From a virus, in IMG/VR virus record IMGVR_UViG_3300023251_000001, positions 7,606-71,605 of that record: a stretch of 64,000 nt of DNA, one strand, 5' to 3'. The notes beneath the pieces are model-generated. The model worked only from the letters and a program-made list of their open reading frames with translations, was not told the DNA's origin and did no database searches. Made by a program: the position numbers and the translations under genes. Numbering within the stretch: the stretch's first letter is position 1; each line of letters begins with the position of its first letter. This document shows positions 23,111 to 48,683 of this stretch, piece after piece.

Positions 23111-23188
23111 TGGCGACAACGGTTGGACTCGAACCAACATAAATCCTTGTTAACGGCAAGGGCATGGGCCTATTCATGTTACGTTGTC
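23111..23188 (-). tRNA. tRNA-Asn(GTT) with C33
   Basis: CCTTG-CC-GTT-AA-CAAGG; G73-CCA. Confidence 0.8.
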
Positions 23189-23294
23189 ATAAGTTGCGGC
23201 TTACTCTGAATCCGCTAAAGTCAAGCCTATAGTAGGCAGCACGGCTTTCTGCTGTAACCTCGTAAGGTTAATCGTGGCCTAGGACCACAATCTG

Positions 23295-23356
23295 AGGCAA
23301 GAGGCTGGAATCGAACCAGCGCATGAAAAACGCTCTACCACTGAGATACTCTTGCC
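23295..23356 (-). ncRNA. anticodon-less tRNA-like RNA
   Basis: GGCAAGAG/CTCTTGCC acceptor, D-arm CTC-AGTGGTA-GAG, T-arm GCTGG-TTCGATT-CCAGC, only 12 nt between D and T arms. Confidence 0.7.
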
Positions 23357-23386
23357 AATCCGCATTATTGGTTTCCCTCATGCAGC

Positions 23387-23460
23387 TGGGGCATCAGCGA
23401 GAATTGAACTCGCGTCACTGACGTGAAAAGACAGCATCCTGACCACTAGACGATGATGCC
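23387..23460 (-). tRNA. tRNA-Glu(TTC)
   Basis: TCGTCTAGTGGTCAGGA D-arm; loop TT-TTC-AC. Confidence 0.85.
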
Positions 23461-23558
23461 ATGTTGGGCCTAGTTTAAGTCCAGACCCAAGACTGGAGCA
23501 TCGTCATGAAAGAAGGAGCAATCATGAAAAACAAGTCTGTTACGACATCTCAAAAAAC

Positions 23559-23613
23559 ATTATACCACAAAACATGTCATCCGTCAAGTCATTTGAGCGG
23601 GACATTCGTCACC
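23559..23613 (-). promoter_or_regulatory. promoter for tRNA cluster plus upstream GACATTCGTCACC box
   Basis: TTGACG-17bp-TATAAT; box lies 13 bp upstream of -35. Confidence 0.8.
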
Positions 23614-24126
23614 TGAGTAATTTTACGAGTTGTATTGAGTACTTTATATCAGTTCTTCTCTTATGTCAAACAATTCCTGGAACTGTTCTATCTCAGGTAT
23701 CACAAACTGGCCGAGAACGATTGAGTTTTTCTCATCCCTAATGTAAGTATCGTATCGTTTAGCCCTGCCTTCGAAACCAGATGGCATCGTGATAAGAACC
23801 TTTTTATTATCGCTTACCCCTCTGACTACACCACGTTGCATTCCGCACGTTTTATAGCTGCTATTGATAGCTTTGACTTCATTGCACGCGAAGACAACAA
23901 TATCGCCAATGCTAAAATTCCTTCCCACCATATCAACTGGATTCATCGATTTCCTTTACAAACTTCCTGTATGATTTACGTAATCGTTTTCTGTACCCTC
24001 GTTTAATCTTCTTCCTCTCTCCTGGTTGCCAGAAACAATATCTCTTCCATCCAGTCAACGCATCATATTCGTCCCCGGATTTTAGTGGTATCCTAGCTTC
24101 TTTCATAGCAACCTTCTACTCCTAAA

Positions 24127-24447
24127 TCATCGATTATCGCCAGAACCTTTAATAACTCCTCTCGCCCTGCGGTCAAACAGTTTCTCGATGTTCTCTCTGG
24201 CAACATCTTCAAGCGAGACCCCTAAGTCTGAAGCGATTGCGGCTAGGTACCACAGAACGTCTCCTAGTTCATCTGGGACGCCACTGAAGTCTGCTCCTGG
24301 ATCGCCGCGCATCACTTTCTTCACCTTATTCGCTATCTCACCACTTTCTCCCGATAATCCCAAGGTAGGATAGAACACAGCTTGAGACTCAGGATAAGAA
24401 ACTGTTTCTGTAGCAAGTTTTTGATATTCTTCAAACGTAAAATCCAT
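24127..24447 (-). CDS. MazG-like NTP pyrophosphohydrolase
   Basis: LGLSGESGEIANKVKK...DELGDVLWY...NIEKL..R. Confidence 0.9.
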   Translation of the reverse strand: MDFTFEEYQKLATETVSYPESQAVFYPTLGLSGESGEIANKVKKVMRGDPGADFSGVPDELGDVLWYLAAIASDLGVSLEDVARENIEKLFDRRARGVIKGSGDNR

Positions 24448-24760
24448 TTCACTCCCTTGTTTTCATCAACTGCTTTCCCGATTCTTTCGTAGAAATCAAC
24501 AGGCACCAGTGTATAATTTAGCGACCTAACACACATAGCAACTTCAAATTCGACCCACTCTCTACGCATGATAGCAGAATGTTTTTCTTCAGACGGCTTA
24601 TGATACCACTCGTCAGAAATATCAATAATCGCTTTTTCAATTACTTCGCTTGTCTTCATTAGGCCTCCAGATAGAAAAAGCACCGACTTTCCCAAGATGA
24701 ATTCATCGGCATTCGCGACTGCCTCATGTCTGTCAGGTTCTCAGTATTCATCGGTGCCTC

Positions 24761-24834
24761 TGGTTGGCGAGCTAGGAATCGAACCTAGTCAAGCAGAATA
24801 TCAGTCTGCCACGCAGCCTTTACATCACTCGCCA
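24761..24834 (-). tRNA. tRNA-Ile(GAT)
   Basis: GCAGA-CT-GAT-AT-TCTGC; A73-CCA. Confidence 0.85.
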
Positions 24835-24837
24835 ATG

Positions 24838-24908
24838 TGGGGCTGACCGGAATCGAACCGACTCAGAAAGCTTAAAAGGCTCATATGCAGCCACTACATC
24901 ACAACCCC
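24838..24908 (-). tRNA. tRNA-Lys(TTT)
   Basis: Loop CT-TTT-AA; GGGGTTG/CAGCCCC. Confidence 0.8.
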
Positions 24909-24921
24909 ATTTTTATCTTTT

Positions 24922-25182
24922 CTACTGCTTGTTTTTCCCGTAACTGAATCCGGCAAGATCTGCCATTAACATTGCCGCAAGCAGCTTGTCTTCTTCATCG
25001 AAGAAATCAAGGATTTCTACATATTCGTCGTCAGGTAGATCGTAAACCATATCACCATCATTCATCATCGTAACAATCTTTGCAGAGGCAGCCACTCTGT
25101 CGAGTACATCAACAAACTGTTCTTCATCAATATCTTTTCCTGAAATCTTTTCTGCTAACAGATGTGTCTTAGATTTACTCAT
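24922..25182 (-). CDS. small acidic helical protein
   Basis: Start MSKSKTH with GGGAGG SD. Confidence 0.6.
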   Translation of the reverse strand: MSKSKTHLLAEKISGKDIDEEQFVDVLDRVAASAKIVTMMNDGDMVYDLPDDEYVEILDFFDEEDKLLAAMLMADLAGFSYGKNKQ

Positions 25183-25203
25183 ACTTCCTCCCTTTAACTC
25201 TAA

Positions 25204-25277
25204 TTGATCCGGCTGGCTTCGAACCAGCATCATCTTGCTTATGAGACAAGTGCCTTGACCAGTTAGACCACGGATCG
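25204..25277 (-). tRNA. tRNA-Met(CAT), initiator-like C1.A72
   Basis: CGATCCG/CGGATCA; loop CT-CAT-AA; lacks the three G:C anticodon-stem pairs. Confidence 0.8.
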
Positions 25278-25284
25278 TTGTATT

Positions 25285-25551
25285 TTACTCTTCGAATGCA
25301 GACGTATAACCCTCTGCCTCAGCCAACATAAGAGCCATTAGCACAATGTCTTCGCCATCTTCCAGTGCGTCAAGCAACGCCTCGGTATTAACTACCTCTG
25401 GAGAGTCATAACCAACCATAGCCTTTGTTATGACGCGAGTCATTCTTATGGCAATACGAGTCACGTCTTCTAATGTAAATGTAGACAACGGACTTTTGAT
25501 TGCCTTGTACATCGGCATCATGTGTTCTACAACTGCTTCTGCTTTATTCAT
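25285..25551 (-). CDS. small acidic helical protein
   Basis: GGAGGG SD; C-terminus resembles that of 24922 ORF. Confidence 0.6.
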   Translation of the reverse strand: MNKAEAVVEHMMPMYKAIKSPLSTFTLEDVTRIAIRMTRVITKAMVGYDSPEVVNTEALLDALEDGEDIVLMALMLAEAEGYTSAFEE

Positions 25552-25568
25552 ACTGTCCCTCCTTAGAA

Positions 25569-25904
25569 CTATAAATCGTACTCATCAATCATATCAGAAA
25601 GGTTCTCACTTGTCAAGGCCTCTGCAATTTCTGGAGGCAGCTCTTCAAAAATTTCGTCATATCCTTCAGTGAATCCGATGTACTTGATAATCATGAAACA
25701 AACAGCCGGTAAGTGTTTCTGATACTTCAGAACGTATTTATTGAAACATTCGATCCATTCTTCTTCAGTGCTGTTATTAGCAGCTAACTCAATGAATTCT
25801 GGAATGAAGTCGTCTATCATCTGATCAAGTTCATCTTCTGGCGGCATCAATATGTTGAGAACTTTTTTTATCGCTTCATTCGCTTCTGTTGTAGTCTCGC
25901 TCAT
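25569..25904 (-). CDS. small acidic protein
   Basis: Start MSETTTE (upstream extension overlaps tRNA-His). Confidence 0.6.
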   Translation of the reverse strand: MSETTTEANEAIKKVLNILMPPEDELDQMIDDFIPEFIELAANNSTEEEWIECFNKYVLKYQKHLPAVCFMIIKYIGFTEGYDEIFEELPPEIAEALTSENLSDMIDEYDL

Positions 25905-25917
25905 TTCATCACCCCTG

Positions 25918-25991
25918 GTTATGGGACGAGATTCGAACTCGCATTGAGCCAGGACCACAACCTGGTGCCTTGCCAATCGGCCACCCACAAC
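25918..25991 (-). tRNA. tRNA-His(GTG)
   Basis: CCAGG-TT-GTG-GT-CCTGG; encoded G-1:C73. Confidence 0.88.
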
Positions 25992-26034
25992 ATGTATATA
26001 AAGTTGGTGGCAGGTCGCAACCCGCCACCTAATT

Positions 26035-27372
26035 TTAACTCAATCCTTGTTCGTACTCTACCATCCACTTAAGAGCCGAAGCTGAGAAGCCACAAATATT
26101 AACCCATGGGCCATATCCGATAGAATTCTCGTAGGACGCGACATCCATCATATAGCCTCTTCCATCTGGAGCAGGAACATTCGACCGGGACTGCATGTCA
26201 GAGACAAAGATCGTCCTGTCAAATCCTGGAGCAGCTTTCTTAGCAAATCTGTAAGCTTGCTGAAAGTCAGTCCCGTGTCCAACTTGCCCAGAACTGAATG
26301 AATCTACAAACGCGAAACCTCTACGTGCAGGAACTTCAATCGTAGTAGAAGCAAACGAGAAGGCTCTTACCTCTTCTCCTAACTCCCTGATCATAGAACC
26401 AAACACAGCGCCAGCTTCTTGTGCGGTAACCACCGACCTTCCGGAGATGGTCGTCTGCATAGATCCAGACGTGTCAACGAGCAGTCTAGTCTTGCCTTTC
26501 AACTTAGGCTGCGACTCCAAAGCCCTAAGCATCAAGGTTTCTAGCTCAGTTTCGAAAACTGGCTCAATCTTTGCCGCAACGTAGAAACGGAAAGGCAAAA
26601 CTCTACTAACGTTCAACGACAGTAGGTATTCCTTGATCTTGTAAGTATCAATGCCTGCTTCTGTCATGTTACGCAGGTTTCTGATGGCGGCCATCGCACC
26701 AAGCTTGTTCTCTGCCATTAGCCTCTCGAAGGTTTCCCTCTTGCTGGCTCCACCTGACAATGCGACTTCCCAGGTGTCCGGAGACTCAAGAGTGTCGTCT
26801 GCTAACCTCTTGAAGACAGCTGCTTGCTCTTCATCCTTTGGCTTTGGCCTAGAGATAAACATAGCGTCTCGAAGCGTTACAGCACGATCCTTGCGGTTAT
26901 ACTTGCCTAGCCTGTAGGCGTCAAACTTGGTGAACGCATCAGCAATACCAAGTCTTAATTGCCTAGGGATAGACTTATTCTTATGCGGGTCGCTCGCGGA
27001 ATCACCAAGGAACATAGCAAGAATCTCGCCTAGCTCGTCAGGACGCTGGATTACGTTGTAAACCAAGTCCCTGATAAGGCTGTTGTTCTTCTTGTCCTTA
27101 AGCAATGAGGCGATCAACCAGAGAGGCGCATGCCTCAAATTGTAATCAGTCCTCGCTGTTACAGCAAGATTGGCAGCAAACTCAGGCTCGACATTCTTGA
27201 CTAAACTGGTAATTCTCTCAGCAATGCTTTCTCCTGACTCATAGAACGTGTCTTCGAATAGCATGCATGAAAGGACAGACCTAACCAAGTCCTGTTCTGC
27301 TGTAGTTCTATTTACCACAGCGCCTTCGTGAGTCCTTGGCGCAAAACCTGTAACCTTTCTGTTCGTCTGCAT
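26035..27372 (-). CDS. Ro60/Rsr-like TROVE-domain RNA-binding protein with vWA domain
   Basis: THEGA, LFEDTFYESG, IQRPDE, KFDAYRLGKY, PDTWEVALS, LGAMAAIRNLRN, VLPFRF, vWA LLVDTSGSM, HGTD, FVSDMQ; start MQTNRK (GGAGGG SD). Confidence 0.93.
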   Translation of the reverse strand: MQTNRKVTGFAPRTHEGAVVNRTTAEQDLVRSVLSCMLFEDTFYESGESIAERITSLVKNVEPEFAANLAVTARTDYNLRHAPLWLIASLLKDKKNNSLIRDLVYNVIQRPDELGEILAMFLGDSASDPHKNKSIPRQLRLGIADAFTKFDAYRLGKYNRKDRAVTLRDAMFISRPKPKDEEQAAVFKRLADDTLESPDTWEVALSGGASKRETFERLMAENKLGAMAAIRNLRNMTEAGIDTYKIKEYLLSLNVSRVLPFRFYVAAKIEPVFETELETLMLRALESQPKLKGKTRLLVDTSGSMQTTISGRSVVTAQEAGAVFGSMIRELGEEVRAFSFASTTIEVPARRGFAFVDSFSSGQVGHGTDFQQAYRFAKKAAPGFDRTIFVSDMQSRSNVPAPDGRGYMMDVASYENSIGYGPWVNICGFSASALKWMVEYEQGLS

Positions 27373-27422
27373 AATTCCCTCCTTTTCAGCTTGCACATAA
27401 TTGTGCAGCAACTACATCTTTA

Positions 27423-27493
27423 GCTCCTGCAACACGCGAGAACGGTGTTTTTTTATCCAATATAAGAAGTAACCGTACTCTTCAGCTAGGAGC
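27423..27493 (-). ncRNA. Y-RNA-like unit 4 (closest to Ro60 gene)
   Basis: GCTCCT..AGGAGC closing stem; AGCTGAAG..ACGGTTACTTC..CCGT..TGTTGC. Confidence 0.75.
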
Positions 27494-27500
27494 ATAATTT

Positions 27501-27584
27501 GAGACACTGTAACATTCGACCACGGTTATTGGCTTGTAGCCAGTTTCATTAGAAGAAGTATCCGTAATCTACAACTAGTGTCTC
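27501..27584 (-). ncRNA. Y-RNA-like unit 3
   Basis: GAGACACT/AGTGTCTC stem; ACGGATACTTC; 3'-strand GTCGAATG matches bacterial Ro-binding GNCGAAN(0-1)G. Confidence 0.8.
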
Positions 27585-27595
27585 GCATGTTTCAA

Positions 27596-27691
27596 GGACT
27601 GCAATATTCGATATCTGGATGTCAGGCTCGGCCAAGAGTTTCCACCAAACATCCAGATTTCTTAGGAGTATCCGCAATCTGCAGCTAGTCC
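27596..27691 (-). ncRNA. Y-RNA-like unit 2 (long hairpin insert)
   Basis: GGACT/AGTCC stem; GCGGATACTCC; ATCTGGATGT/ACATCCAGAT insert; ATCGAATATTGC. Confidence 0.7.
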
Positions 27692-27702
27692 CTAATCTTA
27701 AA

Positions 27703-27782
27703 GCACCGCAACGAGCGGAGACGGGTATGCCAATTAAGGCGTTCTGTAAGATAGAAGTAACCGTCATTCCTGCAGCTGGTGC
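27703..27782 (-). ncRNA. Y-RNA-like unit 1
   Basis: GCACC/GGTGC stem; AGCTGCAG..GACGGTTACTTC..CCGTC..CGTTGC. Confidence 0.75.
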
Positions 27783-27828
27783 CTATCTTTCTTGGCAGAA
27801 GTACACTATGCCAAGTTTTTAATCTTTT

Positions 27829-28071
27829 CTAATCGCTATCAATTTCGAACAAAGACATAGGTTCTTCTCTAGCTAAATTCACAGAGTGGAGATAGCCAGC
27901 GCAATACATTAGCATCGCCATCTCAACATCGTTGATAATGCCATCAAATCTGGCCGTAGTGACGATGTTTGCAATATCAAACGCATTCGAATCGCCTTCT
28001 CTGATACCAGCACGTTCAGCTGTATCTACAAAGTTGTCAATTCCAAAAAGCAATCGCATCGTTTCTTTCAT
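27829..28071 (-). CDS. small protein, first gene of the Y-RNA/Ro60 operon
   Basis: Start MKETMR with GAGGAGG SD, right after promoter 28093-28121. Confidence 0.65.
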   Translation of the reverse strand: MKETMRLLFGIDNFVDTAERAGIREGDSNAFDIANIVTTARFDGIINDVEMAMLMYCAGYLHSVNLAREEPMSLFEIDSD

Positions 28072-28092
28072 TTTTGCCTCCTCGATATTTAC

Positions 28093-28147
28093 AGTATAGC
28101 ACATTTCCACCCTTCCGTCAAGTCGTGCCAGAAAGACATTCGTCACC
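28093..28147 (-). promoter_or_regulatory. promoter plus upstream GACATTCGTCACC box
   Basis: TTGACG-17bp-TATACT; box 13 bp upstream of -35. Confidence 0.8.
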
Positions 28148-28831
28148 TATCCACTCTAGGAACATTTCTTCTGTTGAATGTCTCCCGTAAATACGGTGGA
28201 ATTTCTTATGGCACTCATCGCAGAGCGTCACGCCATTATTTAATTCAAAGCGCAATCCTGGGTTGTCTGTGAATCCTAGAATGTGATGCGCGTTTAGTTT
28301 TCCACGTAATTTTCCACATTTTTGGCACACAAACAAATCTCTTTCATAAACCATTTGACGCCACTCATAGTATTTTGGACTGCTTCGATCAGAATGCCTA
28401 TCGTCGTCTGTTTTATTTGGGTTCCAATTAGGATTTAGCGGACCTTTCCTAGTACTCATAACGTCTTTATGCAGACACCCACATGATTTTGTAAGCTCGG
28501 CAACAAGACTAGCCACAGGGATATATGCAAAATTTCCGCAATCACACCTACACTTCCAAACAACGCTACCATTAACCCTCTTGTCGGTAGGCTCTATGGC
28601 TACCAATCTTCCAAACCTCATCCCAGTTAAGTCTCGTTTACGCAACTCTCCTCTAAGGCACCCGCATGATCTTGTCCCACCTGTGGTAAGATGCGGGCTA
28701 GTGACGAGAGCGAGTGCGCCGCAGTCGCATCGACATCTCCATACAACGCCACAATCTTTTCTCATGTTAGTAGGCTCTATAACGACTAACCTTCCAAATC
28801 GCTGGCCGGTTAAATCTCTAATCTCGCTCAT
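28118..28831 (-). CDS. HNH homing endonuclease (copy 3 of 3)
   Basis: DLTGQRFGRL repeats; ERDLFVCQKCG..NAHHI..NGVTLCDECH. Confidence 0.9.
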   Translation of the reverse strand: MSEIRDLTGQRFGRLVVIEPTNMRKDCGVVWRCRCDCGALALVTSPHLTTGGTRSCGCLRGELRKRDLTGMRFGRLVAIEPTDKRVNGSVVWKCRCDCGNFAYIPVASLVAELTKSCGCLHKDVMSTRKGPLNPNWNPNKTDDDRHSDRSSPKYYEWRQMVYERDLFVCQKCGKLRGKLNAHHILGFTDNPGLRFELNNGVTLCDECHKKFHRIYGRHSTEEMFLEWIGDECLSGTT

Positions 28832-28859
28832 AGATACCTCTTAGTCGTTGATGTAGCTG

Positions 28860-28942
28860 CGGAAGGTGAGTGACTCGAACACTCATAACCTCTCGGTCAT
28901 ATCCGCTTTCAAAACGGATTGCTTTCCATTCGCCTACCTTCC
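28860..28942 (-). tRNA. tRNA-Ser(TGA)
   Basis: Loop TT-TGA-AA; long variable arm; G73. Confidence 0.88.
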
Positions 28943-29231
28943 GTTATTTCGCTCGCTTGATTATCGCGGGAATATCCCAATTCTAACTGGAATAACATCG
29001 CAGCTAAGAGCACGAGACTTCAGAGAAGCGGCCTGATTATCTGCCCCCGCCAACGTCTTGAATGTCCTGAGAGTATCGCTTGAGAATCTCACACGATCTT
29101 CCAGAAGCATTGGCTCCAACTTCCCGCGTTTATTTCTTTTCCAACAACTGTCAACCCCATTGTAGAAACTTCCATCGATGAACTGAATCGCGAATTCGTC
29201 TGTTTCAATCACGCTAAACATTTTCTTCATG

Positions 29232-29705
29232 TTAACCTCCCAAATTCACAGTGACTTGAACAACATTGCCGGACATCTTCTTCGCCGTCTTAATGGCTGA
29301 TGCCTCGATCTTGTAGATCGTTGGCAGCGTCCCGCTTTTCTTTGAAGTGAGTTGCGCTCTGCTTTGATAGCCAGTATTGTACGTATAAGACGGTTCCCAG
29401 CAATGGAACCAATGTTTGCCGTCTTTTGTTTCAACTACCCAGGCCGAACCAACTTCCTCGCCAAGATCAATGTCGCTTTCTACCTTGGCTGTACTTTCAA
29501 CCGTCAACACAGCATCAATTTCTCCATATGAAGAAACCTTATCCGTTTTGACGATTAGACCAGTGTCAATGTTGAGAAGACCGGCCTCAGTGGCAATTAA
29601 CAGAACATCTTTGCTCCCAACCTTTGCGGCTACTGGAATTCCCAGTGGGATATTCCCAGCCCTTGACGCTTTGAACACTTCTGCGCTAATCTTCATAATA
29701 ATCAC
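29232..29705 (-). CDS. hypothetical protein
   Basis: GGGAGGG SD; co-directional with neighbours. Confidence 0.55.
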   Translation of the reverse strand: MIIMKISAEVFKASRAGNIPLGIPVAAKVGSKDVLLIATEAGLLNIDTGLIVKTDKVSSYGEIDAVLTVESTAKVESDIDLGEEVGSAWVVETKDGKHWFHCWEPSYTYNTGYQSRAQLTSKKSGTLPTIYKIEASAIKTAKKMSGNVVQVTVNLGG

Positions 29706-29722
29706 CCTCCCAGATGTTATTT

Positions 29723-29808
29723 TGGTGGGTTGTGTAGGAATCGAACCTACGAAGTCCTTCGGACGCCGGATCTACAATCCAGAGCAATTGCCGCTATGCG
29801 AACAACCC
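29723..29808 (-). tRNA. tRNA-Tyr(GTA)
   Basis: Loop TT-GTA-GA; variable arm GTCC-GAA-GGAC; A73-CCA. Confidence 0.88.
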
Positions 29809-39432: not shown

Positions 39433-40090
39433 ATTGAGATGTCTTCGTTAAGATGGATACTCTTATCGGTTCATTGACAAGTTGACTTGCTCATGAGTAT
39501 CGCGTGGACAGTGTATAACCGCCCTAACAGGTCCATAAGTACACCGGTTACAGTGCGTCAATCAAACGCCCTCAATGCCAGAGTAAACGGTCTTAAGTCA
39601 CTACTGGCAGCCTAACACGTGCGGATAAAATCATGAGACGGTTAACAGGTTAACGGTCATTTACAGCAGAAACTATGAGCTTCCCCTAGAAAACGGGGAT
39701 TATGCCCATTATATGAACAACGTCCACTGAAAAGGTGGATTCCTCCTAGAAAAGAGGAGATGAGACGCAACTATCGTTGTTCCTGCACATAATAGAGGGG
39801 TTTCCATAGCTCCTCGCTTGTTCTCAGATGTTTGGGGCAAGCTACTCAGAACATATTCAACAATCTGTATTTCAGCTGGAGAATCCGGCTTTATAGGATA
39901 ATCCACTTAGATATAGCCTTCTAGATGATAGTGGTCTACAATGAATGATTCGCAGGTAGAATCAATCAAAGTTAACGAAACGTCGTCAACATGAGGGCTA
40001 TCTCATGAAACTAACTAGATTGTAGTAGAAACACTGAGAAATTAGTTAGGTTTCCCATCTTGCCCTATATCCTAATAGGAGGTAGGAGCA

Positions 40091-41668
40091 ATGACTCTTT
40101 TACAGTACAAAACCGGCAAACGCAGTAAGATTCAGTCGAAAGTATTCATTAACCAGTACTTCGCAGAGAAGTGGGTTGATTCATGCAGAGACTACTTACA
40201 ATGGTGGAGTTATAGCAACTCCAACAAGATTGTATCAATTGCTGGTGAAATCTTGTTTGATTTCGTAGAATCTGAACGAACATACTAGGAGTGATGGGAA
40301 ATGCATATGTTAATCTACAGGCTAATGGAAGATAATGATTCTAAGGTACTTACGTTCGTTTCTGCGAGTTGTGCATACAAGTTCCTAGTTAAACTGCAAA
40401 GTAAGCCGATTTGGTGGACTTTGTGGGAGATTGGGGAGGTTTGCACAAAAGATGGTAGTCATTCACATATCTTCGTAGATTCGGAGGGAATATCATGAAA
40501 CATTACATAGTCTGGTTCAAACTGATAGATCATGAGACAATTCAAGCAATGGAATGTGATTCTACGAGCGAAGCCTACAATCTCCTACTTTTCTATGCAA
40601 AGTCCTTGGAATGGTGGGAATTGTATGACAACGAATATAAACTCACAGAAGAAAGTAAAGCTGTGCAGTTTAGAATCGCTTCTAGGAAGTACTCATGATT
40701 ACTCACGTAGTCTGCTACAAAACACGCAATTCAAGGTGCGTCTATGTAGAGCTATTTCATTCTCTGGTCTTTGCGGAGAAATGGATAACTTCTCATGGTC
40801 GTCACCATGTTTACTGGATTTTGAAGGAAATTACAGGATTTCATGCCGAAAAAGGGTGTGCCACCTATAAAATCCTCAAAACAGATGAAAGTGAGGAGAA
40901 GTGAATGAAACGTATTGAAATCAACGAGATTCAACCGATAGGTAGCAAAACCTGCAAGTTTATCCGCAAGATGCTTGTAAAATGGGGTATCCTGCAGCAA
41001 GTTATAGGATACTAGGACAAACAAGGCGGATATAGGGCAAAATGGGGAATCTAACTGATAACTATGGAAAAGACGTATAATTTGCATCATTCTGCCCTTT
41101 TGTAGGATAAAAGAGGAGCAAAGAATGAGAGTGTTCATATTAAGATATGAAATGTTCAAAGATGAGGTAAAATGCTCAAAGTGCTTCAATACTCCTTATT
41201 CCGCCTACTTCTGGGTCGATAAGAACAGGTTAGGCATGAAATGGGTAAGTTGCCATCAATTATGCACAACTGTATCAACTGTTGGCATGATTGATGAGAA
41301 ACTCTGTTTTTCTAGGGGTTTCAATGAAGATGGCAGTCTTTCTACTAGAACTCCGTGGGGAATCCCATATTATGAGGAAATCTGCGAGAAACTAGGAGAA
41401 GCTAATGCTTCATGATGGAAGGTTGTATATTGTAACATCTTTGGCTAGAAATGCACCGATTCGCCCCAATTCTGGCGATTTCAAGGTGAAAACATTTGCG
41501 ACTGCCGAACTTGCGGATAAATGGTTCGAAGCTAATCAATCCTACTTAGAGTGGGCCGAATTTAGCAGAACCTCTCCAGTTAGGCACAGAGATGGCAGTT
41601 TCATACGGTTTATCAGCAAAACCTTTAAGTTCGATGAAGAGCAAGGTTTTTGTGTGAGAAGGTCGTAA
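40091..41668 (+). other. six small plus-strand ORFs (40091, 40301, 40495, 40695, 41125, 41405), apparent paralogue family
   Basis: SD-led, start/stop-coupled; shared F-x5-A-x2-W-x~9-W pattern. Confidence 0.65.
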
Positions 41669-41790
41669 AACATAGGACAAATAGCTACAAATGGGCAGAA
41701 TGATGCACTTTATACGTCGAACGCCTATAATCTGCATCATCCTACTCATTATGCTTAAGAACTGCAGCAATTGCTGCAAAAAGGAGCAAA

Positions 41791-42543
41791 ATGAGTACAA
41801 GATGCCAAGTTCAACTAGTTTTTGAAGGAAATGATTGGAATACCGGCGAAGCCAAGACATTCTGGGATAAATCCATTGTTTTGTATCATCATTGTGATGG
41901 TTACCCAGAAAACATGATACCTGTGCTGATTAGAGCATATGGTAGTGGAATGGCTGGTATTGTAGGAGATTACCTCAGCTATCATGAGGATCTAAGTGGA
42001 TTCAGCGGACACTACTATGATTCATTGTTTAGTAGTGCAAAAGCGGTGAATTACATAGTTGCTGCTGATCCTAAGCATTTTGAAATAGAACCTAATGGTT
42101 GTAGGGAGTTTCTGCATGGAGATATTGAATTCTTTTATAGAGTATTCATTTCTCCTACAAAGTGGGAGATTCAAGTATTTACCCCTGATAACCGCAAAGA
42201 TTTCTGGGAAACTGCTTCAATCCACTCGCTTGTAGCAATTACTCCTAGAATGTCCTTAAAGCTAGCAGCCCAATGGGTCGTGAATACGCTAGGACAGAAG
42301 CTAATGGTTTCTCCTATAAAGAAGGCGAAACCAGCAGTTTCTCCTACAAATGATGCACTTCTCACAGAAAACTATATGATTGCATATGCTTCAGTGGATT
42401 TCGGTGAAGATGGTTCAATCATGTTTGAAACAAGGGAAGAAGCGGATGTTTGGATAGAAGAACATAAAAGCGAAGTGCTTTTCGCTGATTTGTACGTAAG
42501 AGATTGGAAACACATTGTTTGGATCAGACCTACAGTGAAGTAA
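41791..42543 (+). CDS. conserved phage early hypothetical protein
   Basis: MSTRCQV...LYHHCDGYPE...HGDIEFFY. Confidence 0.7.
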   Translation: MSTRCQVQLVFEGNDWNTGEAKTFWDKSIVLYHHCDGYPENMIPVLIRAYGSGMAGIVGDYLSYHEDLSGFSGHYYDSLFSSAKAVNYIVAADPKHFEIEPNGCREFLHGDIEFFYRVFISPTKWEIQVFTPDNRKDFWETASIHSLVAITPRMSLKLAAQWVVNTLGQKLMVSPIKKAKPAVSPTNDALLTENYMIAYASVDFGEDGSIMFETREEADVWIEEHKSEVLFADLYVRDWKHIVWIRPTVK

Positions 42544-42647
42544 GCACAACCTGAGCAAAGTATAGCATAATGAGTAGAATGATGCATTTTATAGGCAAAT
42601 ACCTTACAACCTGCATAATCCTGCCAATTACCAACAGGAGTTGCGAT

Positions 42648-43094
42648 ATGTTGATAGCACATCCTACAACTGAAGATCATTACAGGAAATATGCTGAACT
42701 TGCAGAGCTTACCGGATTTACCCCTACATCTCATCATCCTATGGGAGAATATGAGTATCTTCTGGAGAAATACCTAGAAGATCATCTACTCAACAATATT
42801 CCATTGAAAGAATGGGATTCATGGGGAGTTTGGCTACAATGTAGCACAAAACGCCTAAGTACAGCAGAACTGTGCTGCTTAGGCAAACACCTAGTCATTT
42901 ACCGTGTTTTAGGTGCATTTCCCATCTTTTACAAGAGAATTCATGGGAATTGTCTAACAACTACTGGATTCATAGAGCTTTCAAGGATTTCTCAGAGAGT
43001 ATATGAGGATCTGGACAAGAATCAGGAAAAGTATGAAGTTTGGGCAGAACAGACTAGAAACCGCTTTATTGAAGCGAATGTTAAGATAGTCTAG
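42648..43094 (+). CDS. hypothetical protein
   Basis: Start MLIAHP with AGGAG SD directly after inverted-repeat arm. Confidence 0.65.
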   Translation: MLIAHPTTEDHYRKYAELAELTGFTPTSHHPMGEYEYLLEKYLEDHLLNNIPLKEWDSWGVWLQCSTKRLSTAELCCLGKHLVIYRVLGAFPIFYKRIHGNCLTTTGFIELSRISQRVYEDLDKNQEKYEVWAEQTRNRFIEANVKIV

Positions 43095-43181
43095 CTTTAA
43101 CTGTTACAAAAAGCTGGTAGTTGGCAGAATTATGCAGATTGTAAGGGCAATACACATCTTACCACAGATTGAAGGAGAATT

Positions 43182-43944
43182 ATGTACAAGTCAATCGAAT
43201 TGGTGATTTCCTTAGAGAATGATGCATTTAATGCAAACTTCTCGGATGTTCGCAGTGAAATGAGTGGAATGTGTGAGAGAATCATAGATTACACTGAAAC
43301 TGCGGCAATGTTAGGGACTGATGGTGAAAGATGCTGGCCTATAGTAGATTCCAATGGAATTGAGGTAGGTTACATCAAAACTGTTGATCTTAAGGAGGAA
43401 CCCACATGTTCTTACTAATCTTCCGATTTGTCGGTGAAACTGCGTGGAATTACAGAGAAGTTGATGAGATATATGAAGAACAGCAACTTCTTATTCATTA
43501 CTCGCGGATTGCAGGGAAAGTTATTGAAGAATCCCAGCGTCTAGGAGGAAATGATGAAATCTGTGCATTCTTAGGAGTAGATGTGGAAAGTACTGAGATT
43601 AAGCATGAAAAGGTGGTATGGTCATGAAAATGCCTGAATCCATAGTGAATAAACTACATCCTGCTAGATTTAGCGAGATGTCACCTAAAATGGCTGCATT
43701 TGTGGGGTTTATATGCGATGTTGCTTATACTGACCCAAAAATCACAAGTGTTAGCGTAACATCAGATGGTTTCCTACTTTGTCAGAGAAATCATGATGTT
43801 TGGCATAGTTCATTTGAAGGTTCCTATCTTGACCTAGAAAACAATATGTTGCGCTTGTTTGATGCAGCTTTGCTGACAGATGACGAGCAATACACGGCTT
43901 CTAGTGTAATGAGAGGAAAAATCACAGATTGGAGGATAAATTAG
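43182..43944 (+). other. three small acidic hypothetical ORFs (43182, 43406, 43618)
   Basis: SD-led, overlapping. Confidence 0.6.
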
Positions 43945-44564
43945 TGACACATGTTAAAATCTCGGAGAAAAACAGCAAGTTAGGTCGAATTGCCAATATT
44001 TCGGTAGTTCCTGTTGAAAGCTGCCCAAACTCAGGGTTTTGTCATGAGTTGTGCTATGCTCGACCTATTTATAATAGGTTTCCTCATACTAAAGCAGCTT
44101 GGGATAGGAACTGGGAGATGTTCAAACAATCTCCTAGAACCTATCGGGATTCCATCATTTATATGCTAAATCATGGAAAGCTCGGCACTTCTGGGCTTTT
44201 CAGGTGGCATGTAGGAGGAGATATTCCAAACCAGGAGTATCTAGGCATTATGGCTGAAATTGCTGAGTCTTTCCCAGAAACTGAGTTTATGGCCTTCACT
44301 AAGGCATATTCTCTTGACTTCTGTGGAGTTCCAAGTAACTTCCATACAATCATGTCTGCTTGGGCAGGAATGCCCATAAACACTGACTTTCCAATAGCTT
44401 ATGTGAAAGAATTGGATAATCGGTGGGAAGATCATGAGATTGTTTATGATTGTGCAGGAGATTGCAGAAGTTGCCGAAAGTGCTGGGAAGCTGAGAAAGG
44501 TTCAGCTATTACCTTGCATTTACATGGAACTAAGGCAAAATCAATACTTTCCGCATTAAACTAG
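43929..44564 (+). CDS. GP88-like (radical-SAM-related Cys-motif) protein
   Basis: ISEKNSKLG...SCP...C...CYA, FRWHVGGD, AFTK, C.G.C.SC.KCW; start probably GTG near 43944. Confidence 0.7.
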   Translation: MEDKLVTHVKISEKNSKLGRIANISVVPVESCPNSGFCHELCYARPIYNRFPHTKAAWDRNWEMFKQSPRTYRDSIIYMLNHGKLGTSGLFRWHVGGDIPNQEYLGIMAEIAESFPETEFMAFTKAYSLDFCGVPSNFHTIMSAWAGMPINTDFPIAYVKELDNRWEDHEIVYDCAGDCRSCRKCWEAEKGSAITLHLHGTKAKSILSALN

Positions 44565-44572
44565 GAGGAAAC

Positions 44573-44797
44573 ATGTACACACACGTAAACTTCCCAACAA
44601 AGAAGAGTTTGAAGCAGGCTGTAGCAGCTTTCAATGAAACCGGTGAGAATCCAGTTACTTTCTATCAACCTGGGCCATTTGGAGGTAAAGAAACTCAAAA
44701 TGGGTCATTTTGCGTAGAAGGTCCGCATTATCCACAACCTCACCGGTTTTATGCTAGTTGTAGGGCGAAAGACGGTGTAATTGTGAAGGTGTCCTAG
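44573..44797 (+). CDS. conserved phage hypothetical protein
   Basis: NFPTKKSLK.AV...YQPGPFG...EGPHYPQPH.FYA. Confidence 0.7.
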   Translation: MYTHVNFPTKKSLKQAVAAFNETGENPVTFYQPGPFGGKETQNGSFCVEGPHYPQPHRFYASCRAKDGVIVKVS

Positions 44798-44943
44798 ATT
44801 GACGTATCTTCTAGGAGGGTATAGTTGATTATCCGCAAAGGTCGGACAAAGACATGGGTTTCCCGCAAATCTCCGATAGAGTATGCAATTATCAGAGAAC
44901 GTATGGGAATCCCCACAAGATGGATGTAAGTTAGCACATTTGA

Positions 44944-44980
44944 GGGTAAGTCACCTGAAACTAGGTGGCTTGCCCTTTTT
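44944..44980 (+). terminator. intrinsic terminator
   Basis: GGGTAAGTCACCT-GAAACT-AGGTGGCTTGCCC-TTTTT. Confidence 0.7.
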
Positions 44981-45130
44981 CTATGCCTTCCTGATCTATT
45001 TGAATATGTTCTAGGAGAAGCTATGATCTTCTCATAGAATATGTTAGACTTAAGCATAATCTATTTCAATCTGTGGTAACATGTTGTAACATGAGATGAT
45101 GTAACATAGGATCACATGTCAGGATATGAC

Positions 45131-45270
45131 AGGCGAAAATATGTTGGAATAAAAAATCCTGGGCGAAAATATACTTCAAGTGAAGTCAAGCGAATTCGGG
45201 CGAAACTAGGCAAGCGAAAATTAGGCGAAAATCTCAAGCGAATTTAGCCAAGCGAATCCTGGGCGAAAAA
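45131..45270 (+). repeat. cluster of nine RRGCGAA(A/T) direct repeats
   Basis: GCGAA copies near 45133, 45163, 45190, 45201, 45214, 45225, 45238, 45251, 45263. Confidence 0.8.
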
Positions 45271-45271
45271 C

Positions 45272-45754
45272 TTATTGCGGCTTCGCTCTGCTCAATAACT
45301 CCACCAAATTATAATTGGTCAAATTCTCCGTAGGTCCACCTTGCAGCAATGACATCGTCTTCAGTATACGATCAAGACTGTTAGTCAAAGTACTCAACAC
45401 ATCCAATATCTTAGCTGAGTTGATGCTGTTGATATCATCGGCAAATCCTTGACTCAAAATTCTGATGGAGATTTTCAAAATAGTGTCGATCAAAATCTTA
45501 GCGCTCATTTGAGCCGAACTCACTAAGTCTAACTCTCCAACTATCTGTTCCGTTAGTTGATTCTCGAACTGCTTGTCCGACAACCTATCTTGTATTGCTG
45601 CCCTCTTATCGACCCACCCCATCTTTCTGCCATGATGCGCTACTGTCTCTGGCTTTACGCCCAGTTCCCTAGCAATCGCTGAATAAGACTTCTTAGGACT
45701 CGCATAAACGTATGTTCTTTCTACTGCTGTCCAGTCTGCTTTTGATTTTGGCAT
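45272..45754 (-). CDS. terminase small subunit-like HTH protein
   Basis: DW.AVE..YV...SYSAIARELGV...TV...G..MGW..KR N-terminal HTH followed by helical region. Confidence 0.6.
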   Translation of the reverse strand: MPKSKADWTAVERTYVYASPKKSYSAIARELGVKPETVAHHGRKMGWVDKRAAIQDRLSDKQFENQLTEQIVGELDLVSSAQMSAKILIDTILKISIRILSQGFADDINSINSAKILDVLSTLTNSLDRILKTMSLLQGGPTENLTNYNLVELLSRAKPQ

Positions 45755-48304: not shown

Positions 48305-48683
48305 CAAACATATTCTCCAGATCCTCAATCGTTGTTTCTTCACCAAACGCCTGAGTGAAAGGTATTTCTCTCTGTGAGTATGCTGGGTACAGTAGTTGTC
48401 TCCGTCGCCCAGCTGCATACTCTCCGCTTTTATGTCTCTTGATAAACTGTCTCGCAGTTTGTGTTATGAACGCATCAAGGCTACTGATTAACCCGTCGTC
48501 TAATTTACTGGTGAGGATTATTAGTATCTCTTGCACGATGTCATCTGCATCAGCTATTGAGCGAATGTGTGACCTTACAAAGTCGTCTAGAAATTCGATT
48601 GAGTAACCACATACCGCCTCGATGGCACTGTCATTGCCAGAGTTGGCTTCATTTAGTAATCGTTGACTAATCACTTTAATCAT
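48285..48683 (-). CDS. sigma-factor region-2-like protein
   Basis: A.SGN.SAIE...DADDIVQE.LI...L.AFI...AR; no region 4. Confidence 0.6.
   Translation of the reverse strand: MIKVISQRLLNEANSGNDSAIEAVCGYSIEFLDDFVRSHIRSIADADDIVQEILIILTSKLDDGLISSLDAFITQTARQFIKRHKSGEYAAGRRRQLLYPAYSQREIPFTQAFGEETTIEDLENMFDEDKFI

What the first reader, a model, noticed from the sequence alone, without database searches (positions are those of the whole stretch)
40041..45084. Five chained long-range stems, each looping out a complete gene cassette
Seen directly: five inverted-repeat pairs tile the plus-strand module end to end. Z 40041-72/41028-59 (28 WC + 3 G.U of 32) encloses four ORFs. A 41072-105/41685-718 (31/34) encloses two. 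B 41723-55/42564-96 (30/33) and C 42602-35/43113-46 (30/34 + 1 G.U) enclose one each. D 43154-73/45065-84 (19/20) encloses five. Each right arm is only 4-12 nt from the next left arm, and left arms end at or shortly before an SD/ATG. A, B and C are homologous (TAYAA-nn-TGCATmATyCTrC) but diverged, and each distant partner covaries (GACG/CGTC, GCC/GGC, CCT/AGG; TGCATC vs TGCATA). The long-range pairing is better than the local A'-B or B'-C hairpins, and a mismatch recurs right after TAYAA. Inference: the transcript or single-stranded DNA folds into a multi-petal structure. Options: rRNA-operon-like RNase III stalks releasing end-paired or circularised mRNAs, ssDNA promoters (A and B contain TATAAT at the mismatch), or cassette exchange sites. 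I know no described phage system with this architecture; T7/SPO1 RNase III sites are local hairpins.
Basis: partly seen in the sequence, partly recalled or inferred. Interest (0 to 1): 0.93.

Follow-up and report, generated by a model that had tools for sequence, protein, structure and literature searches.

The report
Phage gene cassettes looped by paired flanks
In one operon of an uncultured 72-kb phage, successive gene groups each lie between two flanking sequences that pair with each other, and related phages keep this pairing while the letters change, so the message most likely folds into a chain of long stems like those used to cut out ribosomal RNAs.

Summary
Four inverted-repeat pairs (Z, A, B, C; 32-34 nt, 28-31 Watson-Crick pairs) are the only such pairs in the whole 71.6-kb phage genome. 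None of 40 shuffles comes near them. They tile the plus-strand operon end to end.

Five metagenomic relatives (66-90% nt identity) keep the arms in place. The arms are 76-100% identical, the enclosed genes 68-98%. Of 29 distinct changes in the arms, 10 are compensatory and 5 repair a mismatch; the 4 to non-wobble mismatches sit at helix ends.

Each left arm pairs only with its own right arm: -40 to -49 kcal/mol against -9 to -21 for local hairpins, with pair probability about 1.0.

The fifth pair, D, is weaker. Its right arm lies beyond a strong terminator and is missing in the most distant relative.

Best reading: long-range helices in the polycistronic mRNA, built like rRNA leader-trailer stalks, probably cut by host RNase III or clamping each cassette's ends. 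No RNA data exist, and wobble pairs show no strand bias.

Cassettes are also gained and lost at the arms. Five paper searches found no description of this layout. This scan has noted the same layout in other phages.

The parts
40041..40072 (+). Z left arm (5' flank of cassette Z)
   Evidence: Pairs with 41028-41059: 28 WC + 3 G.U + 1 C.A of 32. Kept in 3 of 3 relatives that cover it, with one internal compensatory change in L031. In the MFE the helix extends to 40034-40072 / 41028-41066 with 34 pairs.
40091..41015 (+). Cassette Z: five small ORFs (65, 65, 67, 69, 36 aa)
   Evidence: ORF list. Four of them share a weak common pattern with the ORF at 41405-41668 and with the C-terminus of the 250-aa protein. 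The loop is 943 nt here and 1173 nt in L027.
41028..41059 (+). Z right arm
   Evidence: Starts 12 nt after the stop codon at 41015. Cognate duplex -48.6 kcal/mol.
41072..41105 (+). A left arm (contains TATAAT at 41076-41081, then a 2x2 internal loop)
   Evidence: 31 of 34 WC with 41685-41718. Pair probability about 1.0 except at the three mismatches. In L030: 1 compensatory change, 3 repairs, 2 changes to G.U and 2 to C.A.
41125..41668 (+). Cassette A: two ORFs (96 and 87 aa)
   Evidence: no Pfam or PHROG hit. The whole cassette with both arms is absent in L031. The second ORF is absent in L030 and in two contigs of run X21.
41685..41718 (+). A right arm
   Evidence: Starts 16 nt after the stop at 41668. 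Cognate duplex -48.7 kcal/mol, against -21.0 for the local hairpin with the next left arm.
41723..41755 (+). B left arm (TATAAT at 41726-41731, 2x2 loop, conserved C.A mismatch)
   Evidence: 30 WC + 1 C.A of 33 with 42564-42596. Kept in 5 of 5 relatives, with 2 compensatory changes in L031.
41791..42543 (+). Cassette B: one ORF of 250 aa (ORFan family)
   Evidence: Homologues in L030 and L031 lack the C-terminal third.
42564..42596 (+). B right arm
   Evidence: Starts 20 nt after the stop at 42543. Cognate duplex -44.6 kcal/mol; the local hairpin with C-left is only -11.7.
42602..42635 (+). C left arm
   Evidence: 30 WC + 1 G.U + 3 C.A of 34 with 43113-43146. Five pairs changed on both sides in L031; 90.7% of 204 cells are paired; 1 of 500 shuffles reaches the covariation score. 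RNAalifold finds the same helix unaided.
42648..43094 (+). Cassette C: one ORF of 148 aa
   Evidence: no family. Start at 42648 behind CAGGAG, read.
43113..43146 (+). C right arm
   Evidence: Starts 18 nt after the stop at 43094. Cognate duplex -45.7 kcal/mol.
43151..43192 (+). D left arm (core 43154-43178; the extension covers the SD and ATG of the next gene)
   Evidence: 22 of 25 with 45060-45084. Extended to 37 pairs in the MFE. The 24-nt core is kept in L027 but the extension is not. The left-arm sequence is partly kept in L031 without a partner.
43182..44929 (+). Cassette D: five or six ORFs, including a GP88-family protein (43929-44564)
   Evidence: PF17338 at E = 3e-26.
44942..44977 (+). 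Intrinsic terminator of the plus-strand operon
   Evidence: 16-pair stem, 7 G-C pairs, followed by a T run. Conserved in L027 and L031.
45047..45088 (+). D right arm (doubtful member)
   Evidence: Lies downstream of the terminator. Present in L027 and absent at the equivalent place in L031.

Best explanation
The plus-strand operon (about 40.0-45.0 kb) is transcribed as one polycistronic RNA. In this RNA the untranslated flanks of each gene cassette pair with each other over 0.5-1 kb. This gives a chain of four helices of 32-34 bp (Z, A, B, C) that do not cross-pair, and perhaps a fifth (D) in read-through transcripts.

These helices are built like the leader-trailer stalks that bracket 16S and 23S rRNA. 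Helices of this length are substrates of the host's RNase III. The most likely course is that RNase III cuts each stalk and releases one mRNA per cassette. The 5' and 3' ends of each released mRNA would stay paired in the inner part of the helix. That would shield both ends from exonucleases and keep the stop codon and the ribosome-binding site close together.

Shown: the arms exist, they are unique in the genome, they are specific for their own partner, and they are kept complementary by selection. Inferred: that the pairing strand is the mRNA, that both arms of a pair lie on one transcript, and that RNase III cuts there.
For: 1. Uniqueness. The arms are far beyond chance and are the only such pairs in the genome.

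2. Selection on pairing. Over 4 stems and 5 relatives there are 29 distinct changes:
- 10 compensatory changes.
- 5 mismatch repairs.
- 5 changes to G.U.
- 4 changes to C.A.
- 4 changes to other mismatches, all at the outermost three positions or the innermost position of a helix.
- 1 change from one mismatch to another.
For stem C the tool count gives 5 pairs changed on both sides, 90.7% of cells paired against at most 44.6% when the partner is slid, and 1 of 500 shuffles as high. RNAalifold finds this helix unaided with no broken internal pair.

3. Conservation. The arms are non-coding yet as conserved as the genes they enclose, and mostly far more so. In L028 the C arms are 100% identical and the C cassette 72%. 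In L030 the B arms are 97-100% and the B cassette 71%. Conserved mismatches persist across relatives at the same helix positions, namely the 2x2 loop after TAYAA and a C.A eight pairs further in. This argues against simple homogenisation of the two arms.

4. Partner specificity. Cognate duplexes are -40 to -49 kcal/mol. Non-cognate left/right combinations are -1.6 to -21.6 net. Local junction hairpins are -8.7 to -21.0. In the ensemble of 41020-43200 the cognate stems hold 29-31 expected pairs and the local alternatives 0.00. The MFE of the 5.1-kb RNA contains all five stems.

5. Placement fits an mRNA. All arms lie in untranslated spacers. Right arms start 12-20 nt after a stop codon, and the Z, A, B and C left arms end 12-35 nt before a start codon. 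No plus-strand terminator of more than 5 pairs lies between 40041 and 44942.

6. Size. E. coli leader-trailer helices are 25-40 bp around 16S and 27 bp around 23S and are cut by RNase III (PMC10250234, passages read). A 5'-3' UTR duplex of a bacterial mRNA is an RNase III substrate (PMC3868564, passages read).

7. Independent origin. Z shares no sequence with A/B/C, so bracketing arose at least twice in this operon.
Against: - No RNA evidence exists. No listed sequencing run that holds this DNA is on record as RNA.
- The transcription start is not identified. Promoter-like hits are no more frequent than in shuffles (22 found, 20.5 expected). A start inside Z-left cannot be excluded.
- Wobble pairs show no strand bias. 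The plus strand is better for Z (-48.6 vs -41.3), equal for A, and worse for B (-44.6 vs -48.6) and C (-45.7 vs -52.5). Fixed G.U and C.A pairs are about equal in number. An RNA of the coding strand would be expected to favour G.U. Among internal one-sided changes in relatives, G.U outnumbers C.A 5 to 2, which is not significant.
- All compensatory changes come from only two relatives (L030 and L031), so the number of independent events is small.
- D fails two tests. Its right arm is beyond the terminator and is absent in L031.
- The phage has no RNase III gene of its own and its host is unknown.
- Left arms A and B carry a perfect TATAAT, which may mean an additional or a different role.
Confidence: 0.55

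Rival explanations
1. The same long-range RNA helices form but are not processing sites. They act as uncut clamps. Each cassette would fold as an insulated domain, with both UTRs protected from 5'-end-dependent and 3' exonucleolytic decay. Alternatively, translation would be tuned by holding the stop codon next to the ribosome-binding site. The conserved internal loop and the C.A mismatch would then serve to blunt RNase III attack.
For: All the pairing evidence of the main explanation applies. The conserved mismatches break the helices into runs of 8-9, 8 and 13-15 pairs in B and C. In E. coli the 16S leader-trailer helix is needed independently of RNase III (PMC10250234, passage read). The D helix in the window covers the SD and ATG of the next gene, as a translational clamp would.
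Against: In A the inner run is 15 uninterrupted pairs, and the helices total 30-31 pairs with only 1-2-nt interruptions. From my recollection of RNase III specificity (about two helical turns are enough; not checked in a paper here), this would normally be cut. No data distinguish this reading from the main one.
Confidence: 0.2
2. The arms act on DNA. They are conserved junction sequences at which cassettes are exchanged, lost or gained by recombination between phages. The inverted arrangement lets single-stranded DNA fold during recombination or replication. The pairing constraint is then on ssDNA, not on RNA.
For: - Cassette A with both arms is missing in L031. The remaining left arm there has an A-like upstream flank and a B-like body, as recombination between the A and B left arms would give.
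- One X21 contig joins 41067 to 42597 and so skips A+B arm to arm. Another goes back from 43075 to 41690 (one contig each; the skip joint has 27 nt on its shorter side, under the 30 below which the tool warns of other organisms or repeats).
- Cassettes of one relative differ widely in identity to the window (L027: A 98%, B 92%, C 84%, Z 76%) while the arms stay at 97-100%. This is a mosaic pattern.
- There is no strand bias in wobble pairs.
- The phage has a Sak4-like annealing protein.
Against: - Exchange between genomes needs conserved junctions, not complementarity within a genome. It does not explain 10 compensatory changes or the partner specificity.
- Repeated conversion between arms would erase the mismatches, yet they are conserved across about 30% divergence.
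- No cassette is inverted in 5 of 5 relatives, and no strand-change joint is listed for the four runs laid.
- The genome has no serine or tyrosine recombinase.
- The core motif does not recur elsewhere in the genome. In IMG/VR it gave only 21 single, scattered hits.
Confidence: 0.13
3. The arms are double-stranded DNA signals: promoters or operators for a host or phage factor. The shared 20-nt core is the site, and the TATAAT in A-left and B-left is a -10 element. The phage encodes its own sigma-like protein.
For: A-left and B-left hold a perfect TATAAT. Their partners read TATAAA on the other strand, an asymmetry kept in relatives. A Sigma70_r2 match lies at window 48429-48581 on the minus strand. 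A and B arms have a partial look-alike at 39696-39713 on the minus strand in the divergent intergenic region (2 mismatches).
Against: - Half of the sites would point antisense into the cassettes.
- No -35 element lies at the right distance (sequence; scan gives 22 hits against 20.5 expected).
- C-left reads TACAAC, and L031 B-left reads TATAGT with a matching change in its partner.
- Z and D share none of the core.
- A protein site does not explain why the non-core parts differ among A, B and C yet are complementary within each pair, or why they change in step.
- The core occurs nowhere else upstream of genes.
Confidence: 0.08

Closest known systems
Leader-trailer processing helices flanking 16S and 23S rRNA in bacterial rrn operons (RNase III stalks)
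   Same: Complementary flanks pair over 0.5-3 kb into a helix of 25-40 bp that loops out the enclosed unit. The helix is supported by covariation while the flank sequence varies. Several stalks follow each other on one transcript (PMC10250234, passages read; here).
   Different: - Here the loops hold protein-coding genes with their own ribosome-binding sites, not a structural RNA.
- Four to five stalks abut with only 4-12 nt between them.
- No boxA-like element was found. The recalled E. coli boxA 13-mer gave no hit upstream of the operon and fewer hits than shuffles.
- Cleavage is untested.
RNase III sites between the early genes of coliphage T7 (and SP82/SPO1 in Bacillus); recalled, no paper read here
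   Same: A phage operon of small genes whose intergenic spacers are almost entirely helix-forming sequence. The helices are interrupted by a small internal loop at a fixed position. The presumed purpose is one stable mRNA per unit.
   Different: T7 sites are local hairpins. Here the local hairpins that the junctions could form are weak (-8.7 to -21.0 kcal/mol) and have probability 0.00 in the ensemble, while the long-range partners win. The outermost arms, A-left and C-right, have no local partner at all.
5'-UTR / 3'-UTR pairing of icaR mRNA in Staphylococcus aureus
   Same: The two ends of one bacterial mRNA pair, and the duplex is an RNase III substrate (PMC3868564, passages read).
   Different: - icaR uses a 7-nt motif that masks the Shine-Dalgarno sequence of a single gene and represses it.
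- Here the helices are 32-34 bp, leave the SD free in Z, A, B and C, and form a chain in an operon.
Integron cassette arrays (attC sites) and PeSL-flanked cassettes of T4-type phages (PeSL recalled, no paper read here)
   Same: A row of promoter-less cassettes in one orientation, separated by imperfect inverted-repeat elements, with cassette gain and loss between relatives at those elements.
   Different: - attC and PeSL are local hairpins belonging to one cassette end.
- Here each cassette owns two distant arms that pair with each other.
- The genome has no integrase.

Membership tests
rRNA-type leader-trailer (RNase III) processing stalk | Flanks of the enclosed unit are complementary and form a long helix (25-40 bp) | tested here: met
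   Z, A, B and C have 32-34 positions with 28-31 WC pairs and energies of -44.6 to -48.7 kcal/mol. All are in the MFE of the 5.1-kb RNA. The size range is from PMC10250234.
rRNA-type leader-trailer (RNase III) processing stalk | Helix supported by covariation among relatives | tested here: met
   10 compensatory changes over the 4 stems. For C: 5 pairs changed on both sides and 1 of 500 shuffles as high. RNAalifold finds the same helix. Only two relatives contribute the changes.
rRNA-type leader-trailer (RNase III) processing stalk | Both strands of the helix lie on one primary transcript | tested here: inconclusive
   No plus-strand terminator of more than 5 pairs lies between 40041 and 44942. 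The start site is not found and there are no RNA runs. D's right arm is beyond the terminator.
rRNA-type leader-trailer (RNase III) processing stalk | Cleavage by RNase III | not testable with these tools
   The phage has no RNase III gene. The host is unknown. There are no RNA data.
rRNA-type leader-trailer (RNase III) processing stalk | Encloses a structural RNA (rRNA) | tested here: not met
   The loops hold ORFs with SD sequences. There is no Rfam family at E <= 1 apart from one chance miRNA hit.
T7-type early-mRNA RNase III hairpin | Local stem-loop between cistrons | tested here: not met
   Junction hairpins are -8.7 to -21.0 kcal/mol and have 0.00 expected pairs in the ensemble. The cognate long-range stems have 29-31 expected pairs.
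Integron cassette array | Integron integrase (tyrosine recombinase) with the array | tested here: not met
   PF00589 has 0 matches in the 71.6-kb genome, while the control rings in 14 of 14 genomes.
Integron cassette array | One local attC hairpin per cassette | tested here: not met
   Each cassette has two distant arms. A-left and C-right have no local partner.
Invertible segment / shufflon (Hin, Gin, Rci type) | Site-specific recombinase encoded nearby | tested here: not met
   PF00239 and PF00589 both give 0 matches in the genome.
Invertible segment / shufflon (Hin, Gin, Rci type) | Both orientations of the segment occur in populations or relatives | tested here: not met
   5 of 5 relatives have all cassettes in the window's orientation. 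None of the 11 joints listed for the 4 runs changes strand. Those runs are contigs only, so rare forms could be missed.
Small mobile element with terminal inverted repeats (MITE / MPME type) | Copies at other places or in other genomes, with target-site duplications | tested here: not met
   The core motif occurs only at the six arms in the window. IMG/VR gave 21 single scattered hits and no array. The flanks of the arms show no duplication.
Single-stranded DNA promoter (Frpo type of conjugative plasmids; recalled) | DNA enters the cell single-stranded, and a local hairpin recreates -35 and -10 boxes | tested here: not met
   This is a tailed phage with portal and large terminase. The partners are 0.5-1.9 kb apart, and no -35 element is seen.

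The most novel reading that the evidence does not exclude
Phages have a general, undescribed way to run an early operon. Each gene cassette carries its own 'address pair' of flanking sequences that pairs only with itself. The long transcript is then cut by host RNase III into one end-paired (pseudo-circular) mRNA per cassette, resistant to exonucleases and able to recycle ribosomes. The same arms also serve as portable joints at which cassettes are swapped between phages. The chain here, and the similar chains this scan noted in other uncultured phages (unchecked notes), would be instances of one widespread system.
Probability: 0.3. Interest if true: 0.88.

Novelty: new variant of a known kind. 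Interest (0 to 1): 0.8.

Why it matters
Bracketing by long-range helices is textbook for rRNA. As far as five full-text searches show, it has not been described for protein-coding cassettes of a phage operon. If the stalks are cut or clamp the ends, this would be a new layer of phage gene expression. It would give stoichiometry and stability set per cassette from one promoter, and mRNAs with both ends hidden from host nucleases.

The set of four non-cross-pairing helices is also a natural design for insulating genes in synthetic operons.

The arms are more conserved than the proteins they enclose. Cassettes come and go at the arms. The element may therefore also explain how early, host-takeover genes are shuffled as units.

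The reading is directly testable with a cloned operon in wild-type and rnc-mutant laboratory strains.

Tried and rejected
Searches for relatives that found nothing:
- GenBank phages hold nothing similar (blastn).
- IMG/VR holds no relative of the 250-aa or the GP88-like protein.
- IMG/VR holds only short contigs with the terminase.
- The core-motif scan of IMG/VR gave 21 single hits and no array, as many as I would roughly expect by chance.
- A 17-nt piece of Z-left gave 5 IMG/VR hits with no further similarity.

More distant homologues of the 250-aa protein:
- All 41 loci were scanned for inverted pairs.
- Only L027-L031 carry flanking arms.
- Pairs in L034, L038 and L059 are unrelated: AT-rich palindromic repeats, or pairs away from the gene.

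RNA evidence:
- No RNA holder is listed.
- Laying contigs of four DNA runs gave cassette-skipping joints but cannot show RNA ends or rare forms.

Other negative tests:
- Rfam: no family, so no known ribozyme or riboswitch.
- Promoter scan: no enrichment. The transcription start upstream of Z was not found. An alignment of the upstream region shows a conserved block of about 25 nt before Z-left but no clear -35/-10.
- boxA: none.
- Phage-encoded RNase III, RtcB, serine recombinase and tyrosine recombinase: none. For T7-like RNA polymerase there was no match, but the control was silent, so that answer is void.

Method notes:
- The MAFFT alignment of cassette B misplaced the right arms of L030 and L031 and split the left arm at a 20-nt insertion. 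I therefore did not use it for pair counts. I counted B, A and Z from ungapped registers checked by eye.

Readings rejected:
- A coding explanation for the arm homology. Small ORFs start in A' and B', but there is no SD, and the changes in L031 follow pairing, not a reading frame.
- The archaeal bulge-helix-bulge reading. The helices have 1x1 and 2x2 loops, not two 3-nt bulges four pairs apart.

No supplementary files were asked for. Papers were seen as search listings, except PMC10250234 and PMC3868564, of which I read the passages returned.

Full report
WHAT THE WINDOW IS. The window is bases 7606-71605 of a 71,605-base IMG/VR virus record. It is a tailed dsDNA phage. It has a portal, a large terminase, a prohead protease, a DnaB-like helicase, NrdD, a Sak4-like annealing protein and a Ro60-like RNA-binding protein. 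It also has 14 tRNA genes and a sigma-like gene. Almost all genes are on the minus strand. The stretch 40.0-45.0 kb is a plus-strand island of small genes with positive GC skew. These genes match no Pfam or PHROG family, apart from one GP88-family protein. A 16-pair intrinsic terminator at 44942-44977 ends the island.

- The 18-nt core shared by A, B and C matches exactly at six places in 64 kb, which are the six arms. With up to 2 mismatches there are 9 hits against 1.37 expected, and 0 of 100 shuffles reach 9.
- A scan of the whole genome for inverted pairs of at least 22 nt and 86% complementarity, 150-3500 nt apart, returns four pairs: Z, A, B and C.
- None of 40 dinucleotide shuffles of 39900-45200 has a 30-nt window with even 24 complementary positions. 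A, B and C have 27.
- The arms fill the intergenic spacers. Right arms start 12, 16, 20 and 18 nt after a stop codon. The next left arm follows after 12, 4, 5 and 7 nt. The Z, A, B and C left arms end 12-35 nt before a start codon, just ahead of the Shine-Dalgarno sequence.

RELATIVES.

- GenBank phages and IMG/VR gave no relative of the module.
- A scan of metagenome contigs with an alignment of the 250-aa protein and four homologues returned 41 loci.
- The five closest are L027 to L031, with 90, 87, 68, 57 and 51% protein identity and 66-90% nucleotide identity. They carry the arms at the same places.
- Z is present in 3 of 3 relatives that cover it.
- A is present in 2 of 3. In L031 the whole cassette with both arms is missing.
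- B is present in 5 of 5 and C in 5 of 5.
- D is present in 1 of 2 that cover both arms. L027 has it. L031 keeps part of the left-arm sequence but has no partner behind the terminator.
- The other 36 loci show no flanking arms. The inverted pairs in three of them are unrelated repeats.

THE PAIRING IS UNDER SELECTION. I compared each arm position and its partner in every relative with the window and found 29 distinct changes:

- 10 change both sides and keep the pair.
- 5 turn a mismatch into a pair.
- 5 give G.U.
- 4 give C.A, two of them at a terminal position.
- 1 turns one mismatch into another.
- 4 create other mismatches. These lie at the outermost three positions of Z or the innermost position of C.

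For stem C the counting tool gives 34 pairs and 204 cells, of which 90.7% are paired. Five pairs are changed on both sides. One of 500 shuffles reaches the covariation score, and at most 44.6% of cells pair when the partner is slid by 1-3 columns. RNAalifold, given only the alignment, predicts the same helix with no broken internal pair. The helices it predicts inside the coding region are full of broken pairs.

In L031 each C arm differs from the window at 8 of 34 positions, about as much as the surrounding DNA (76% against 68% identity). So the arms do evolve, and they evolve in step.

In the closer relatives the arms are much better conserved than the genes they enclose. In L028 the C arms are 100% identical and the cassette 72%. 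In L029 the arms are 97-100% and the cassettes 78-80%. In L030 the B arms are 97-100% and the cassette 71%.

The caveat is that all double changes come from L030 and L031, which are two lineages.

CONSERVED IMPERFECTIONS. A and B have a 2x2 internal loop right after TATAA, nine and eight pairs respectively from the outer end. C has a single C.A at that place, and it is paired in L031. Eight pairs further in, B and C have a C.A mismatch in all six sequences. A has this mismatch in L030 but not in the window. Z also has one C.A. Mismatches that persist through about 30% divergence while other positions change in step argue against homogenisation of the arms by conversion. They point to a helix with functional irregularities, as in known RNase III substrates (my recollection of the T7 sites; no paper read).

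PARTNER SPECIFICITY AND THERMODYNAMICS.

- Co-folding gives -48.6, -48.7, -44.6, -45.7 and -40.3 kcal/mol for the cognate pairs Z, A, B, C and D.
- Net energies of non-cognate left/right combinations are -1.6 to -21.6.
- The local hairpins that a right arm could form with the next left arm reach only -14.3, -21.0, -11.7 and -8.7.
- In the partition function of 41020-43200 the cognate stems hold 30.8, 29.7 and 29.3 expected pairs. The local alternatives hold 0.00.
- The minimum-energy fold of the 5.1-kb plus-strand RNA contains all five stems.
- A-left and C-right have no homologous neighbour to pair with locally, so only the long-range reading uses all six arms.

WHICH MOLECULE? This is the weak point.

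For RNA:
- The arms lie on the coding strand's transcription unit, strictly in untranslated spacers. They never overlap an ORF, and they leave the SD free in Z, A, B and C.
- No plus-strand terminator of more than 5 pairs separates them.
- Their length of 32-34 bp is that of rRNA leader-trailer helices, which are 25-40 bp around 16S and 27 bp around 23S and are cut by RNase III (PMC10250234).
- A 5'-3' UTR duplex in a bacterial mRNA is a proven RNase III substrate (PMC3868564).

Against RNA, or neutral:
- The helices are as stable on the minus strand. Z is better on plus, A equal, and B and C better on minus.
- Fixed G.U and C.A pairs are about equal in number. Only the recent one-sided internal changes lean to G.U, 5 against 2.
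- No sequencing run on record as RNA holds this DNA.
- I could not place the transcription start.

WHAT HAPPENS ON DNA. Cassettes are gained and lost at the arms.

- L031 lacks A from arm to arm. Its B-left arm has an A-like upstream flank, the product expected from recombination between the homologous A and B left arms.
- One contig of run X21 joins 41067 to 42597 and so skips A and B. Two contigs skip the second gene of A, as L030 does. One joins the end of cassette C back to the A right arm (single contigs, some with short sides, so these are hints).
- Cassettes of one relative differ strongly in identity to the window (L027: 98, 92, 84 and 76%) between arms that are 97-100% identical. This looks like mosaic exchange.
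- No cassette is inverted in any relative and no listed joint changes strand. The phage has no serine or tyrosine recombinase.

I read this as a by-product. Conserved arms are convenient homology for recombination. Recombination does not explain why the two arms of one cassette must be complementary.

PROMOTER READING. A-left and B-left carry TATAAT, and their partners read TATAAA on the other strand. This asymmetry would spare the cassettes an antisense promoter. Several points weigh against a promoter role:

- No -35 element fits.
- C-left is TACAAC.
- L031 B-left is TATAGT, with the matching change in its partner.
- Z and D lack the core.
- The core occurs nowhere else in the genome.

Internal starts are not excluded. 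They would still leave the inner 14-18 pairs of each helix on the transcript.

THE FIFTH PAIR. D is a real inverted repeat. It has a 16-nt exact core, and in the window it extends over the SD and ATG of the next gene. Its right arm lies behind the terminator. The extension is not kept in L027, and the right arm is missing in L031. It may act only on read-through transcripts, rather like lambda sib retroregulation (recalled), or it may be something else. The right arm lies in a region of short repeats.

COMPARISON AND NOVELTY. The closest known structures are the rRNA leader-trailer stalks. The closest known function is RNase III processing of T7 early mRNAs, which uses local hairpins. The element here meets the structural and covariation criteria of a leader-trailer stalk. 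It fails 'encloses a structural RNA', and it cannot be tested for cleavage. It does not meet the defining features of integron arrays, invertible segments, small TIR elements or ssDNA promoters (see the membership table).

Five full-text searches listed no paper that describes protein-coding phage cassettes bracketed by long-range helices. The library lacks most subscription journals, so this is not proof of absence.

This scan has noted the same layout in other uncultured phages: chains of 5 to 13 bracketed early cassettes and single bracketed genes. Those are unchecked AI notes and not independent evidence. They suggest that the layout is recurrent and not a curiosity of this genome.

VERDICT. 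Selected intramolecular pairing of cassette flanks is well supported for four of the five stems. The molecule (mRNA) and the action (RNase III cutting or end clamping) are inferred. I rate it a new variant of a known kind, with high interest because it is cleanly testable and possibly general.

Noticed in passing
window 45130-45270; L030 about 980-1120; L031 about 5380-5489: There are arrays of short GGCGAAA-type repeats. In the window they lie just downstream of the module, before the minus-strand HTH gene at 45272-45754. In L030 (and in one X21 contig) they lie directly upstream of Z-left. In L031 they follow the terminator. They may be binding sites of a regulator, or origin or packaging repeats flanking the module.
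   Followed up: partly
window about 41752-41775: A 20-nt insertion in the leader of the 250-aa gene creates a local palindrome (CTGCAGCAATTGCTGCAG). It is absent in all 5 relatives and in contigs of runs X21 and X24.
   Followed up: partly
window 40091-40904, 41405-41668, 42346-42540: Four ORFs of cassette Z, the second ORF of cassette A and the C-terminal third of the 250-aa protein align weakly (10-22% identity). They share a pattern of a hydrophobic strand, then A.KW, then WW. Homologues of the 250-aa protein in L030, L031, P0003 and P0004 lack this C-terminal part, so it looks like a fused extra copy.
   Followed up: partly
window 48429-48581 (-): A Sigma70 region-2 match (25.6 bits, over the Pfam cut-off) lies in a 138-aa frame. 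The phage therefore probably has its own sigma-like factor, 3 kb from the module.
   Followed up: no
window 26035-27411 (-) and 19978-29808: A 458-aa protein matches PHROG 850 'RNA-binding protein' (E = 1e-39). It lies inside a cluster of 14 tRNA genes. The phage is unusually rich in RNA biology.
   Followed up: no
window 38564-38536 (-): There is a near-consensus sigma-70 promoter (TTGACG, 17-nt spacer, TG, TATAAT; 11 of 12) facing away from the module. The host therefore probably uses canonical promoters, which makes the lack of one in front of Z notable.
   Followed up: no
window 43075 joined to 41690 (run X21): One contig joins the end of cassette C, through 28 other letters, back to the A right arm. 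This suggests a relative with a different cassette order (table 5c). It is a single contig.
   Followed up: no
window 39696-39713 (-): A partial look-alike of the A/B/C arm core (2 mismatches) lies on the minus strand in the divergent intergenic region upstream of the module. No partner was found.
   Followed up: no
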